Of a stretch of DNA of 64,000 nt, positions 39,439 through 40,939 are shown in pieces. How positions within the stretch are numbered: the first letter of the stretch is position 1; each line of letters opens with the position of its first letter. The DNA is from Escherichia phage FriedrichZschokke: the sequence record MZ501067. The stretch is one strand, 5' to 3'. The notes beneath the pieces are model-generated. The model was not told where the DNA came from. It saw only the letters and a list, made by a program, of their open reading frames with translations, and did not search any database. Position numbers and translations under genes: made by a program.

Positions 39439-39550
39439 CAGTTTTGTGAAAAAATTTTTTAAAAAGTTTTGGGGAATTCTGGGGCAGGGAGGGGCAATTA
39501 AAGGATAGGATAATATATTATAACGGGTAGAAACTAAATGATGTCTGGAG

Positions 39551-39600
39551 AGGCCCAGAAAGGCCTAGATGCCAAAAAGCCCCAACCTTTCGGTCGGGGC
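39551..39600 (-). terminator. Tandem hairpins; strong rho-independent terminator at the end of the tRNA/stable-RNA transcription unit
   Basis: Minus strand GCCCCGACC-GAAA-GGUUGGGGC followed by UUUUU, then a second hairpin AGGCC-UUUCUG-GGCCU. Confidence 0.65.
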
Positions 39601-39917
39601 TAAGCCTTGCGGCAACCTTGTCGGGGTTCCACCTGCTAAGGCAAGTGTTTGTACGAAACGCCGGGATTCGAACCCGGTTATTAAGCAGTTGACGCTACTC
39701 AATATTTTTAAAAGGCCATATCTCGACCATATCCGAACGTTCCGTCAAAAACGCTACTCGGCTTACGGCAAAGATATTTCCTCGAATCGATAATTCGGTG
39801 CGCCGTTTCTGCTGTGATGTAAGGGGATATTAACAAATCATAAAGATTTATTAAGACCAGTCCTTACTCAGGGAACATCAGTCCGACGTCTTGCCGGTAG
39901 CGACCCGGCTTCTTGTT
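39601..39917 (-). ncRNA. Putative stable small RNA(s) downstream of tRNA-Arg, with a tRNA-like T-arm (possible counterpart of T4 rnaC/rnaD species)
   Basis: Non-coding ~320 nt between tRNA-Arg and the terminator; contains CCGGG-TTCGAAT-CCCGG followed by CGTTTCG, but no canonical cloverleaf. Confidence 0.35.
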
Positions 39918-39993
39918 TGGTCGAGGCAGTAGGGATCGAACCTACGACCCAGGACTTAGAAGGTCCTTGCTCTTCCTTCTGAGCTATGCCCCG
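39918..39993 (-). tRNA. tRNA-Arg (anticodon TCT), CCA encoded
   Basis: Manually folded cloverleaf: acceptor CGGGGCA/TGCCTCG, anticodon loop CTTCTAA, T-arm GTAGG-TTCGATC-CCTAC. Confidence 0.8.
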
Positions 39994-39997
39994 TAAT

Positions 39998-40073
39998 TGG
40001 GGTGACCGATGGGAGTCGAACCCATGACTACGAGAATCACAATCTCGAGTTCTACCAACTGAACTACGGCCAC
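39998..40073 (-). tRNA. tRNA-His (anticodon GTG), CCA encoded, C73 discriminator
   Basis: Cloverleaf: acceptor GTGGCCG/CGGTCAC, anticodon loop TTGTGAT, T-arm ATGGG-TTCGACT-CCCAT. Confidence 0.75.
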
Positions 40074-40187
40074 ATTAATACCTACTCCAACAATCAAGAT
40101 GTCTTCACACGAAATTAAGAGAAGAGTGATCAGTTCAACCCCTATAATCGCGTCAAGTAGATATTAATGTGACAGTTGTCACAAATT

Positions 40188-40262
40188 TGGCGGACGTGAT
40201 AGGATTCGAACCTATAACCAATCGCTTAACAGGCGATCGCTCTGCCATTGAGCTACACATCC
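40188..40262 (-). tRNA. tRNA-Asn (anticodon GTT), CCA encoded
   Basis: Cloverleaf: acceptor GGATGTG/CACGTCC, anticodon loop CTGTTAA, T-arm ATAGG-TTCGAAT-CCTAT. Confidence 0.75.
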
Positions 40263-40266
40263 AAAT

Positions 40267-40353
40267 TGGTGGGGAGTGGTGGAGTCGAACCACCCGAGTC
40301 GCAATGACAATGGATTTACAGTCCACACCGCTACCTCTACGGGATAACTCCCC
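40267..40353 (-). tRNA. tRNA-Tyr (anticodon GTA), long variable arm, CCA encoded
   Basis: Acceptor GGGGAGT/ACTCCCC, anticodon loop CTGTAAA, variable arm with GTC/GAC stem, T-arm GGTGG-TTCGACT-CCACC. Confidence 0.75.
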
Positions 40354-40366
40354 TTAATTCTTAATT

Positions 40367-40441
40367 TGGTGGCCCTGGGTGGAATTGAACCACCATCTGG
40401 CGATTATGAGTCGCTTGCTTGAACCTTCCAGCTACAGGGCC
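40367..40441 (-). tRNA. tRNA with CAT anticodon (Met, or Ile2 if lysidine-modified), CCA encoded
   Basis: Acceptor GGCCCTG/CAGGGCC, anticodon loop CTCATAA, T-arm GGTGG-TTCAATT-CCACC. Confidence 0.7.
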
Positions 40442-40442
40442 T

Positions 40443-40518
40443 TGGTGCTGATTGACGGAATCGAACCGCCGACCTTCTCATTACAAGTGAGTTGCTCTAC
40501 CTACTGAGCTAAATCAGC
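40443..40518 (-). tRNA. tRNA-Thr (anticodon TGT), CCA encoded
   Basis: Acceptor GCTGATT/AATCAGC, D-arm GCTCAGTAGGTAGAGC, anticodon loop CTTGTAA. Confidence 0.8.
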
Positions 40519-40523
40519 AAAAC

Positions 40524-40613
40524 TGGCGGAGGCGATAGGATTTGAACCTATGAGTCGCCGGAGCGACTGCCGGTTTTCAAGACCGGTGCATTAAACCACT
40601 CTGCCACGCCTCC
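40524..40613 (-). tRNA. tRNA-Ser (anticodon TGA), class II with long variable arm
   Basis: Acceptor GGAGGCG/CGCCTCC, anticodon loop CTTGAAA, long variable arm, T-arm ATAGG-TTCAAAT-CCTAT. Confidence 0.8.
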
Positions 40614-40615
40614 AG

Positions 40616-40689
40616 TCTCCATACAAGGATTTGAACCTTGGACCTCCTGATCCCAAATCAGGCGCTCTACCAAACTGAGCTACACGGAG
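40616..40689 (-). tRNA. tRNA-Pro (anticodon TGG), 3' CCA not encoded
   Basis: Acceptor CTCCGTG/TATGGAG, anticodon loop TTTGGGA, T-arm CAAGG-TTCAAAT-CCTTG. Confidence 0.8.
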
Positions 40690-40699
40690 TAAATTAAAT

Positions 40700-40773
<74 letters not shown>

Positions 40774-40778
40774 AAATT

Positions 40779-40865
40779 TGGTGCGAGAAGTGGGACTCGA
40801 ACCCACAAGGAAATCATTCCGCAGCATTTTAAGTGCTGTGCCTTTACCAATTTGACCATTCTCGC
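40779..40865 (-). tRNA. tRNA-Leu (anticodon TAA), class II, CCA encoded
   Basis: Acceptor GCGAGAA/TTCTCGC, anticodon loop CTTAAAA, long variable arm, T-arm GTGGG-TTCGAGT-CCCAC. Confidence 0.8.
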
Positions 40866-40866
40866 G

Positions 40867-40939
40867 CTGGGAATAAAGGACTCGAACCTTTGCATCCTGG
40901 AATCAAAATCCAGTGCCTTACCAACTTGGCTAATTCCCA
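40867..40939 (-). tRNA. tRNA-Gln (anticodon TTG), 3' CCA not encoded
   Basis: Acceptor TGGGAAT/ATTCCCA, anticodon loop TTTTGAT, T-arm AAAGG-TTCGAGT-CCTTT. Confidence 0.8.

What the first reader, a model, noticed from the sequence alone, without database searches (positions are those of the whole stretch)
39601..39917. Non-coding region downstream of tRNA-Arg with a tRNA-like T-arm
About 320 nt between tRNA-Arg and the strong terminator contain no plausible ORF but include CCGGG-TTCGAAT-CCCGG followed by CGTTTCG, which resembles a T-arm plus the 3' acceptor strand. The candidate 5' acceptor partner lies ~150 nt upstream. This is consistent with stable tRNA-like small RNAs, as reported for T4 (species 1 and 2 RNAs), whose functions remain unclear.
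Basis: partly seen in the sequence, partly recalled or inferred. Interest (0 to 1): 0.4.

Follow-up and report, generated by a model that had tools for sequence, protein, structure and literature searches.

The report
T4 species 1 and 2 RNAs
This stretch holds the genes for two small stable RNAs already known from phage T4 (rnaD and rnaC, function unknown for 50 years); comparing many phages shows that rnaC is a tRNA look-alike whose two remaining arms are tied together by a loop-to-loop contact.

Summary
The window is a T4-like (Tequatrovirus) genome. On the minus strand, 39916-39797 and 39790-39652 are the orthologues of T4 rnaD (species 2 RNA; 102/120 identical) and rnaC (species 1 RNA; 137/139 identical). 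They lie between tRNA-Arg and the operon terminator, so the element is already known. The T arm belongs to rnaC. Its real 5' acceptor partner is CGAUUCG at 39789-39783, not the GAAACG in the 3' end of rnaD that lies about 150 nt upstream.

Going beyond the finding, rnaC homologues occur in at least 12 genera of T4-like phages, usually filling a slot between two tRNA genes. None were found in bacterial or E. coli genomes, and no Rfam family matches the region. On 32 distinct sequences, 40 of 53 proposed pairs show compensatory changes. They support:
- a 7-bp acceptor stem;
- a T arm;
- a discriminator U followed by N-C-A (a true CCA in three lineages);
- a 6-bp kissing contact between the two other loops, with four lineage-specific complementary versions.

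rnaD is an independent module with a swappable apical hairpin. Function remains unknown; a tRNA-mimic decoy is my inference, not a result.

The parts
39918..39993 (-). tRNA-Arg (UCU), the last true tRNA of the 11-gene cluster and the upstream neighbour of rnaD
   Evidence: ARAGORN; Rfam tRNA model, 63.9 bits
39797..39916 (-). rnaD, orthologue of T4 species 2 RNA (120 nt)
   Evidence: Mapped through alignment A1 onto the T4 annotation. 102/120 identical to T4. 735 phage records hold a match.
39893..39909 (-). rnaD 5' hairpin GCCGG-GUCGCUA-CCGGC (5-bp stem, 7-nt loop)
   Evidence: Folds. The base pair of the stem covaries: A-U 10, G-C 6, G-U 3. Read on the plus strand, this hairpin is what the scan reported as terminator-like.
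39816..39870 (-). rnaD upper stem and hypervariable apical hairpin
   Evidence: At least four unrelated sequence types among 19 distinct rnaD sequences. Each folds as a hairpin. Three pairs of the stem below it covary.
39791..39796 (-). Spacer GAAUUA between rnaD and rnaC
   Evidence: A similar 5-6-nt spacer (AAYWA plus U/A) follows the CCA of the preceding tRNA in other genera
39652..39790 (-). rnaC, orthologue of T4 species 1 RNA (139 nt by the T4 annotation)
   Evidence: 137/139 identical to T4. Covariance model R1 gives 160.3 bits. 750 phage records hold a match.
39783..39789 (-). rnaC acceptor stem, 5' strand CGAUUCG
   Evidence: Pairs with 39660-39654. A-U changes to G-C at the third pair (13 versus 18 sequences). 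The two U.U mismatches become Watson-Crick pairs in Tegunavirus, PM2 and Jiaodavirus.
39714..39782 (-). rnaC long arm (helices 2-4, with a conserved 3-nt bulge)
   Evidence: RNAalifold. 22 of its 25 pairs have double-sided changes on A7. The sequence is replaced in Gelderlandvirus, PEi26, Marfavirus and PM2 while the pairing and the total length (138-143 nt) are kept.
39743..39748 (-). Kissing loop 1, UUGACG (apical loop of the long arm)
   Evidence: Fully complementary to 39694-39689. Four lineage-specific complementary versions.
39705..39713 (-). A/U-rich single-stranded linker UUUUAAAAA
   Evidence: AAAAAU is invariant in the first 15 sequences but diverges in Jiaodavirus and PG7
39679..39704 (-). 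rnaC 10-bp hairpin in the variable-arm position. Its 6-nt loop CGUCAA (39694-39689) is kissing loop 2.
   Evidence: All 10 stem pairs have double-sided changes on A7
39661..39677 (-). rnaC T arm CCGGG-UUCGAAU-CCCGG
   Evidence: Read directly. Two of its 5 pairs covary (G-C to U-A 15 times; C-G to U-A twice) and it is 100% paired.
39650..39660 (-). rnaC acceptor 3' strand CGUUUCG, then discriminator U and ACA
   Evidence: U followed by N-C-A in all 20 sequences (14 lineages) listed. A true CCA in Marfavirus, Jiaodavirus and PM2.
39601..39651 (-). 3' trailer with a 7-bp hairpin (39647-39630)
   Evidence: Kept in Dhakavirus JS10 directly after rnaD, where rnaC is missing.
39574..39600 (-). Intrinsic terminator of the tRNA operon: 10-bp hairpin plus U5
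   Evidence: The homologous site is annotated as a terminator in Aplg8. PMC2330249 states that T4 transcription ends after the species I gene.

Best explanation
The region encodes the orthologues of phage T4 rnaD (species 2 RNA) and rnaC (species 1 RNA). These are two small non-coding RNAs made from the 3' end of the long tRNA-operon transcript, which stops at the hairpin-U5 terminator (39600-39574).

Shown here: rnaC is a tRNA mimic. It has a 7-bp acceptor stem, a canonical T arm joined directly to the 3' acceptor strand, and a discriminator U followed by N-C-A. A four-way junction sits in place of the cloverleaf core. The other two arms (a long bent arm and a 10-bp hairpin) carry no anticodon. 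Their 6-nt loops pair with each other (UUGACG with CGUCAA), which would close the body of the molecule.

Inferred from established tRNA biology and from what is reported for T4: because the acceptor/T-arm half is all that RNase P, the 3'-trimming nucleases and the CCA-adding enzyme need, rnaC is cut out of the transcript like a tRNA, and the closed fold makes it stable.

rnaD is a separate module. It has a conserved 5' hairpin, a conserved terminal stem ending in CACC(A/G) where a tRNA 3' end would sit, and an apical hairpin that is exchanged between phages.

Function is not shown. My preferred guess, at about 0.3, is that rnaC occupies or titrates a host or phage factor that recognises the acceptor/T-arm half or the 3' end of tRNAs, and that rnaD's variable hairpin is under host-dependent selection. 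The confidence given below is for identity, structure and biogenesis, not for this function.
For: Identity:
- 91.8% identity to T4 over 390 nt. The T4 record annotates rnaD and rnaC there. Coordinates were mapped.
- rnaC is 137/139 identical to T4 and rnaD 102/120.
- T4 RNAC and RNAD are reported as expressed RNAs of unknown function, validated by northern blot (PMC9697503; PMC3014915).
- The T4 primary transcript is described as the precursor of the tRNAs and of species I and II RNAs, ending after species I (PMC2330249).

Structure:
- RNAalifold on 15 sequences gives 46 pairs, 19 of them compensatory.
- On 32 distinct sequences, 53 pairs including the kissing helix are 92.9% paired. 40 pairs have double-sided changes, against 22.6 +/- 2.4 in shuffles (0/500 reach the observed value) and 8-18 in the slid controls.
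- Kissing helix: 99.5% paired. Its two variable positions show A-U/G-C/C-G and C-G/U-A/A-U. Each lineage's loop 1 matches its own loop 2 at 6/6 and other lineages' at 4-5/6.

tRNA-likeness:
- rnaC fills a slot between two tRNA genes in Moon, Pet-CM3-4 and Melville, among others.
- U-N-C-A at the 3' end everywhere, CCA in three lineages.
- The rnaC model weakly hits genuine tRNAs; class II tRNA-Ser scores best, 20.7-20.9 bits.

Selection:
- Retained in phages with few tRNAs nearby: RB69 has 2 and fHe-Yen9-01 has 3 in the stretches examined.
- Phage-only: 0 hits in one genome for each of 185,579 bacterial and archaeal species and 0 in 5,426 E. coli genomes.

rnaD:
- Present without rnaC in Dhakavirus JS10.
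- The structure I tested is 97.3% paired, with 4 covarying pairs.
- A convergent SNP in rnaD arose in 3 of 3 lines of a T4-like phage adapting to a semi-permissive host (PMC12685909).
Against: - No RNA data exist for this particular phage. Expression is inferred from T4.
- The mature ends are taken from the T4 GenBank annotation. That annotation puts the 5' end one nucleotide before the acceptor stem and the 3' end at U-A. This does not fit simple RNase P cleavage plus a CCA end, so the processing steps are inferred, not shown.
- The covariance-model alignments (A4, A5, A7) are fitted to the proposed structure, which inflates pair counts somewhat. The MAFFT-only alignment A3 gives the same picture with fewer events.
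- The kissing helix varies at only two of its six positions and rests on three independent lineage events. In PM2 only 4 Watson-Crick pairs plus one G.U of the 6 remain.
- Covariation cannot tell an intramolecular kiss from pairing between two molecules.
- In Enterobacter-type Kanagawavirus and in Winklervirus the T loop is UGCAUGC or UGCAUUC, which is not tRNA-like.
- T4 deletions that remove the whole tRNA region are viable on laboratory strains (my recollection, not checked here), so any function is conditional.
- Nothing here tests the decoy idea.
Confidence: 0.85

Rival explanations
1. rnaC and rnaD act in cis for the operon, not as RNAs with a job of their own. As structured, tRNA-shaped blocks they would guide RNase P and 3' processing of neighbouring tRNAs, or protect the end of the transcript from exonucleases. 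The stable RNAs would then be by-products.
For: They are always inside or at the 3' end of a tRNA operon. In Tequatrovirus and Jiaodavirus rnaC is the last unit of the tRNA cluster, followed by the terminator in the former and by a CDS in the latter. The spacers look like those between tRNAs. A third structured spacer sits upstream of tRNA-His.
Against: In many genera rnaC is in the middle of the cluster, where end protection makes no sense. A spacer would not need a conserved length, a covarying kissing contact and a tRNA-like U-N-C-A end. rnaC persists where few tRNAs are left nearby. Dhakavirus keeps the tRNAs and rnaD without rnaC.
Confidence: 0.2
2. The two complementary loops pair between molecules, not within one, so that rnaC forms dimers or rings.
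For: Covariation of the two loops is equally compatible with pairing in trans. In phi29 pRNA, loop complementarity kept across relatives was the phylogenetic evidence for the intermolecular contact (my background knowledge).
Against: No sequence or context similarity to pRNA. As far as I know, T4 packaging does not need RNA. The conserved total length and the conserved 3-nt bulge that could fold the long arm back fit a closed monomer. None of this is decisive.
Confidence: 0.12
3. rnaC and/or rnaD are base-pairing regulatory small RNAs that target a phage or host mRNA.
For: The literature calls them 'small regulatory RNAs' (PMC9697503). rnaD has a variable hairpin, and a convergent adaptive SNP arose in it.
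Against: The remaining invariant single-stranded stretch is a plain A/U run that diverges in Jiaodavirus and PG7. No target was sought or found. Reviews state that no trans-acting RNA function has been shown in T4 (PMC3014915).
Confidence: 0.1
4. They are decayed tRNA genes or neutral remnants that still get processed but no longer do anything.
For: tRNA-like ends and a position in tRNA slots. Weak similarity to class II tRNAs. The function has stayed unknown after 50 years. rnaC has been lost in Dhakavirus and VR26.
Against: 40 of 53 pairs kept by compensatory change across 12 or more genera. Length conserved while the sequence is replaced. A loop-loop contact that covaries. At least 99% identity in 490 of 750 records. 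Neutral remnants do not behave like this.
Confidence: 0.06
5. The region codes for small proteins, as many GenBank records annotate it.
For: ORFs of 42, 45 and 74 codons exist. Two of them match PHROG families of unknown function, phrog_24262 and phrog_28391, at E about 1e-33. Many records place 'hypothetical protein' over the region.
Against: No Pfam match. No reading frame stays open across lineages, and the 74-codon frame is broken in T4 itself. Single-base length differences occur between close relatives. Substitutions follow RNA pairing, not codons. The RNAs are known products in T4. The PHROG families are most likely built from the same mis-called ORFs.
Confidence: 0.01

Closest known systems
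Phage T4 rnaC (species 1 RNA) and rnaD (species 2 RNA), NC_000866.4 70908-71046 and 71053-71171
   Same: Direct orthologues. Same order (tRNA-Arg, rnaD, rnaC, terminator), same strand logic and same lengths. rnaC is 137/139 identical and rnaD 102/120.
   Different: The apical hairpin of rnaD is a different sequence type from T4's. The upstream tRNA-Arg differs from the T4 one, and the cluster carries His, Asn, Tyr and Met instead of Ile and segB.
Class II tRNAs (long variable arm: Ser, Leu, Tyr, Sec)
   Same: A 7-bp acceptor stem, a 5-bp T stem with a 7-nt UUCGAAU loop joined directly to the 3' acceptor strand, and a discriminator plus N-C-A. A hairpin sits just before the T arm, where a long variable arm would be. 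The gene sits in a tRNA array. The best non-self hits of the rnaC model are tRNA-Ser. The only tRNA-clan hit in Rfam is tRNA-Sec, at 16.6 bits and not significant.
   Different: No D arm and no anticodon arm or anticodon. 139 nt. Not called by ARAGORN and not matched by the Rfam tRNA model. The two non-T loops pair with each other.
tRNA-like domain of tmRNA
   Same: The acceptor/T-arm half of a tRNA joined to a large non-tRNA body that contains tertiary pairings.
   Different: ARAGORN finds no tmRNA or tag reading frame. The third acceptor pair is A-U or G-C, not the G.U that alanyl-tRNA synthetase needs. Much smaller. No Rfam hit.
Bacterial Y RNA-like YrlA (Rfam RF02553) and viral tRNA-like structures
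   Same: Non-coding RNAs that copy part of a tRNA so that tRNA enzymes accept them.
   Different: The only YrlA hit in the region is a sub-threshold match over tRNA-His/Arg, not over rnaC (17.7 bits against a gathering score of 69). As far as I know E. coli K-12 has no Ro protein. The architecture differs.
phi29 packaging RNA; ColE1 RNA I/RNA II and HIV TAR-TAR* kissing complexes
   Same: Hairpin loops that pair loop to loop. In pRNA the complementarity is kept across relatives while the sequence changes, as seen here. In the TAR-TAR* complex all six nucleotides of a 6-nt loop pair, as proposed here.
   Different: No homology. Here both loops are on one 139-nt molecule, and whether they pair within or between molecules is open.

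Membership tests
T4 rnaC (species 1 RNA) | Sequence homology to the T4 rnaC gene | tested here: met
   137/139 identical; blastn E = 1e-71 class hits to records annotated rnaC
T4 rnaC (species 1 RNA) | Position in the tRNA operon, after rnaD and before the terminator | tested here: met
T4 rnaC (species 1 RNA) | Accumulates as a discrete stable RNA of about 140 nt in infected cells | not testable with these tools
   Reported for T4 only (PMC9697503 northern blot)
T4 rnaD (species 2 RNA) | Sequence homology to the T4 rnaD gene, directly after tRNA-Arg | tested here: met
   85% identity (102/120) with conserved 5' and 3' parts and a different central hairpin
tRNA (Rfam RF00005) | Cloverleaf with D arm and an anticodon arm with a 7-nt loop | tested here: not met
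   Not called by ARAGORN. No RF00005 hit even at E <= 10. The covariation-supported structure has no such arms.
tRNA-like RNA (acceptor/T-arm mimic) | 7-bp acceptor stem continuous with a 5-bp T stem and a 7-nt T loop | tested here: met
   The T loop is canonical in most lineages but not in Enterobacter-type Kanagawavirus or Winklervirus.
tRNA-like RNA (acceptor/T-arm mimic) | Single-stranded discriminator plus CCA at the 3' end | tested here: inconclusive
   U-N-C-A is encoded everywhere: CCA in three lineages, ACA in this window. Whether the mature RNA carries CCA cannot be tested here.
tRNA-like RNA (acceptor/T-arm mimic) | Processed by RNase P, or a substrate of the CCA-adding enzyme or of a synthetase | not testable with these tools
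   Inferred from the structure and from my recollection of the 1970s-80s T4 literature, which the paper library does not hold
tmRNA | Tag-peptide reading frame and a G3.U70 alanine identity pair | tested here: not met
   ARAGORN reports no tmRNA. The third acceptor pair is A-U or G-C.
Hammerhead ribozyme (considered for rnaD because of CUGAUG ... GAAAC) | CUGAUGA and GAAA cores arranged around three stems with an NUH cleavage site | tested here: not met
   No Rfam hammerhead hit at E <= 10. The final A of the CUGAUGA core is a U here. No stem I lies between GUC and CUGAUG. CUGAUG is paired inside a helix.
Kissing-loop (loop-loop) pseudoknot | Two hairpin loops complementary to each other, with the complementarity kept by compensatory change | tested here: met
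   6/6 in four sequence versions and 99.5% of cells paired. Pairing within or between molecules is not resolved.

The most novel reading that the evidence does not exclude
rnaC defines a widespread, phage-only family of tRNA mimics with no Rfam entry. Its members have the acceptor/T-arm half, a U73-NCA end and no anticodon, and the body is locked by a covarying kissing contact. The family would work as an RNA decoy or adaptor for a factor that reads tRNA ends or elbows, for example a tRNA-targeting defence toxin, or as a chargeable RNA outside translation. rnaD's exchangeable hairpin would be a host-range determinant evolving in an arms race. That would finally give the 50-year-old T4 species 1 and 2 RNAs a function.
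Probability: 0.2. Interest if true: 0.75.

Novelty: already known. Interest (0 to 1): 0.38.

Why it matters
[quoted passage not shown] What matters is that their function is still unknown.

The comparative analysis turns 'two odd stable RNAs of T4' into a defined RNA family that reaches well beyond T4, with a structure model and precise handles for experiments. Those handles are compensatory kissing-loop mutants, the invariant discriminator U with N-C-A, and the exchangeable rnaD hairpin, in which a convergent adaptive mutation has already been reported.

There is also a practical annotation point. The two genes are unannotated or labelled 'hypothetical protein' in most of the listed records among the 800 or so phage records that hold the region. 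Two PHROG families (phrog_24262, phrog_28391) appear to be built on those mis-called ORFs.

Tried and rejected
1. It forms in the minimum-free-energy fold of the unprocessed transcript. I rejected it for the mature RNA. The partner that covaries is CGAUUCG, rnaC exists without rnaD in most genera, and rnaD exists without rnaC in JS10.

2. An inner acceptor strand, ACGGAACG (from 39745), suggested by the sub-threshold tRNA-Sec alignment. It pairs 8/8 with the 3' end in this window. It is broken by A.C and worse in other lineages, where the hairpin it belongs to covaries instead.

3. rnaD as a hammerhead ribozyme. Rejected; see the membership test.

4. Protein coding. Rejected.

5. Host or prophage origin. 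No match in one genome for each of 185,579 bacterial and archaeal species with a structural pattern, and none in 5,426 E. coli genomes by blastn.

6. Rfam at gathering and at E <= 10. Only the real tRNAs reach threshold.

7. Reaching more distant T4-like phages through loci around the lysozyme gene. This gave little, because the tRNA cluster often lies outside the 10-kb flank. I did not examine Krischvirus, Pseudotevenvirus, Slopekvirus, or the Vibrio, Aeromonas and Acinetobacter T4-like phages, so the outer limit of the family is unknown.

8. The original papers on the sequence and processing of species 1 and 2 RNAs are not in the paper library. Statements about RNase P processing of these RNAs rest on my memory.

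9. Three pattern searches failed on syntax, and three paper calls failed on a term shorter than three characters.

10. The simple terminator scan did not report the operon terminator, although folding does.
Full report
**What is there**

ARAGORN and Rfam find eleven tRNA genes on the minus strand, from 40939 down to 39918. The last is tRNA-Arg(UCU) at 39993-39918. It ends just before a 10-bp G+C-rich hairpin (39600-39579) with a U5 run. The description in the finding is therefore correct.

**Identity**

A blastn search of 39530-39920 against 50,697 phage records finds 804 records. One is T4 itself, at 91.8% identity over 390 nt. In the T4 reference record the matching stretch carries two misc_RNA features:
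- rnaD, 'small, stable RNA; species 2 RNA', 119 nt, starting two bases after the end of tRNA-Arg;
- rnaC, 'species 1 RNA', 139 nt.

Mapping through the alignment gives rnaD = 39916-39797 and rnaC = 39790-39652 in the window. rnaC is 137/139 identical to T4 and rnaD 102/120.

The library of papers says the following:
- Both are transcribed from the tRNA region and their roles are unknown (PMC3014915).
- They behave as late-accumulating RNAs, validated by northern blot (PMC9697503).
- The T4 primary transcript runs through the whole cluster, ends after the species I gene, and is the precursor of the tRNAs and of both RNAs (PMC2330249).

No Rfam family covers it.

The hexamer complementary to the 3' acceptor strand that lies about 150 nt upstream is GAAACG at 39809-39804, inside the 3' stem of rnaD. 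It does pair in the fold of the unprocessed transcript, but it is not the partner that evolution maintains (see below). The last 50 nt or so of the interval is 3' trailer.

**rnaC beyond T4**

rnaC is extremely conserved within close relatives: at least 99% identity in 490 of 750 records. Iterated blastn, degenerate pattern scans and a covariance model (R1) also found it in the following groups:
- Mosigvirus (RB69)
- Gaprivervirus (VR7)
- Karamvirus
- Kanagawavirus
- Moonvirus
- Tegunavirus
- Gelderlandvirus
- Winklervirus
- Mosugukvirus
- Jiaodavirus (138 Klebsiella and Raoultella phage records)
- Marfavirus
- two unplaced phages, EcS1 and Ursula

In Moon, Pet-CM3-4 and Melville it sits between two tRNA genes, for example tRNA-Met | rnaC | tRNA-Gly in Moon and tRNA-Trp | rnaC | tRNA-Gly in Pet-CM3-4 and Melville. 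There is no rnaD beside it there. In PM2, Kc304 and fHe-Yen9-01 a tRNA-Trp gene follows it directly. It survives in phages with few tRNAs in the stretches examined, such as RB69 and fHe-Yen9-01.

The same structural pattern finds nothing in one genome for each of 185,579 bacterial and archaeal species. blastn finds nothing in 5,426 complete E. coli genomes.

**Structure of rnaC**

RNAalifold on a MAFFT alignment of 15 distinct sequences predicts a four-way junction with these parts:
- an acceptor stem (CGAUUCG with CGUUUCG);
- a long arm;
- an A/U-rich linker;
- a 10-bp hairpin;
- one unpaired base, then the T arm, which runs straight into the 3' acceptor strand.

Counting pairs on that alignment gives 95% pairing and 19 pairs with double-sided changes. 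Shuffles give 7.1, and slid controls give 2-5. On 32 distinct sequences aligned to the model, 40 of 53 pairs have double-sided changes. Shuffles give 22.6 +/- 2.4 (0/500 reach the observed value) and slid controls give 8-18. That alignment is fitted to the structure, so the numbers lean towards it. The unfitted alignment tells the same story.

The acceptor stem is the one formed by the RNA's own 5' end. Its third pair is A-U in 13 sequences and G-C in 18. The two central U.U mismatches of most lineages become U-A and C-G in Tegunavirus, U-A and U-A in PM2, and U-A and A-U in Jiaodavirus. An alternative inner strand (ACGGAACG) that looks better in this window is broken in other lineages.

**A loop-loop contact**

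The apical loop of the long arm (UUGACG, 39748-39743) is the exact complement of the loop of the 10-bp hairpin (CGUCAA, 39694-39689). The complementarity is kept in four sequence versions:
- UUGACG / CGUCAA in most lineages
- UUGAUG / CAUCAA in Tegunavirus
- UUGGCG / CGCCAA in Marfavirus
- UUGCAG / CUGCAA in Jiaodavirus

Each lineage's loop 1 matches its own loop 2 at 6/6 and the others' at 4-5/6. PM2 is the one weak case, with four Watson-Crick pairs plus a G.U.

The long arm's sequence is replaced wholesale in Gelderlandvirus, PEi26, Marfavirus and PM2. Its pairing, a 3-nt bulge below the apical helix and the total length (138-143 nt) are all kept. That is what a closed geometry would require. 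Covariation cannot say whether the loops kiss within one molecule or between two.

I could not find this contact described in the searchable papers. The older literature is not held.

**The 3' end of rnaC**

After the acceptor stem, all 20 sequences (14 lineages) listed have U, then one variable base, then C-A. Marfavirus, Jiaodavirus and PM2 have a genuine U-CCA. This window has U-ACA (39653-39650).

The spacer in front of rnaC (AAYWA plus U or A) follows the CCA of the preceding tRNA. In T4 and in this window it instead follows the CACC(A/G) end of rnaD, so rnaD ends where a tRNA would end.

The rnaC model also gives weak full-length hits to real tRNAs, best to class II tRNA-Ser.

One tentative extra: a GG next to the junction (39717-39716) becomes CG exactly in the lineages whose T loop changes from UUC... 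to UGC.... This would fit an elbow-like contact, but it rests on one or two events.

**rnaD**

Among 19 distinct sequences, the first 47 nt or so and the last 25 nt or so are nearly invariant. The central apical hairpin comes in at least four unrelated sequence types, each folding as a hairpin.

A structure with the 5' hairpin (RCCGG-GUCGCUA-CCGGY), a terminal stem and the lower part of the long stem is 97.3% paired, with four covarying pairs. The terminal stem never varies, so it is untested.

rnaD occurs in Tequatrovirus, Mosigvirus and Dhakavirus. In Dhakavirus JS10 it is followed directly by the trailer and terminator, with rnaC missing. Gaprivervirus VR26 has neither. The two RNAs are therefore independent modules.

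A 2025 study found a single convergent SNP in rnaD in three of three lines of a T4-like phage adapting to a semi-permissive E. coli (PMC12685909). By my reading of their coordinates it falls in the variable hairpin.

**How it most likely works**

- Shown: the sequence identity with the T4 genes, the structure, the distribution and the tRNA-like ends.
- Established for T4 in the literature: co-transcription with the tRNAs, and accumulation as discrete RNAs.
- Inferred: the acceptor/T-arm half is what RNase P, the 3' nucleases and the CCA-adding enzyme recognise, so rnaC is excised like a tRNA. The closed body makes it long-lived.
- Guess, at about 0.3: with no anticodon and both other loops occupied, rnaC can only present the tRNA top half and 3' end. 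It could therefore act as a decoy or adaptor for something that reads those parts.

The rivals are a purely cis-acting processing or stability role (0.2), loop pairing between molecules (0.12, a variant of the structure and not a separate function), a base-pairing small RNA (0.1), a functionless remnant (0.06) and protein coding (0.01).

**Verdict**

The element is already known. Interest is moderate, and only because an old open question becomes more testable.

Noticed in passing
window 40074-40170 (minus strand), the spacer between tRNA-Asn (40188-40262) and tRNA-His (39998-40073): A third structured, non-tRNA element of the operon that is not annotated in the records I saw. It folds with z = -4.36 and has no Rfam hit. 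It is about 80% identical in Klebsiella Jiaodavirus phages, where it again lies just upstream of tRNA-His (355 records). A 14-bp closing stem covaries in 5 genera (7 of 24 predicted pairs compensatory). It could be another processed small RNA or a leader needed for tRNA-His maturation.
   Followed up: partly
window 39565-39702 (-) and 39708-39836 (-): ORFs translated straight across rnaC and rnaD match two PHROG families of unknown function, phrog_28391 and phrog_24262, at E about 1e-33. Together with the many 'hypothetical protein' annotations over this region, these look like spurious protein families built on RNA genes.
   Followed up: partly
window 39918-40939, compared with T4 (L001): The cluster has 11 tRNAs (Gln, Leu, Gly, Pro, Ser, Thr, Met, Tyr, Asn, His, Arg). 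T4 has 8 tRNAs plus the segB homing endonuclease gene. The tRNA-Arg(UCU) here has a different sequence from T4's and matches the one in Aplg8. This resembles the segB-less arrangement described for T2L, RB1 and RB3 (PMC2330249).
   Followed up: no
L002 (phage Aplg8) 434-797; also the L010, L011 and L022 types: In many Tequatrovirus phages about 360 nt are inserted between tRNA-Arg and rnaD, so rnaD is then preceded by an A/U-rich stretch and not by the tRNA 3' end. I did not examine what the insert encodes.
   Followed up: no
L073:1434-1499, and the same place in L076, L086 and L088-L090 (Marfavirus): A conserved element of about 60 nt (GGGGUGG...CCCACCCC) lies between tRNA-Met and rnaC, in the position that rnaD holds in T4. 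It has no sequence similarity to rnaD.
   Followed up: no
GenBank MK327928 (G2133), MK327940 (G29), NC_054920 (G9062): These records carry 'tRNA-Lys' or 'tRNA-OTHER' features under matches to rnaC or the rnaD-rnaC region. These look like tRNA-finder calls on the rnaC tRNA-like end, but I did not check the feature coordinates.
   Followed up: no
window 39717-39716 and 39672-39666 (rnaC junction GG and T loop): The GG beside helix 2 is CG in exactly the three sequences whose T loop is UGCAU(G/U)C instead of UUCGARU. This may be an elbow-like tertiary contact. It rests on too few independent events to claim.
   Followed up: partly
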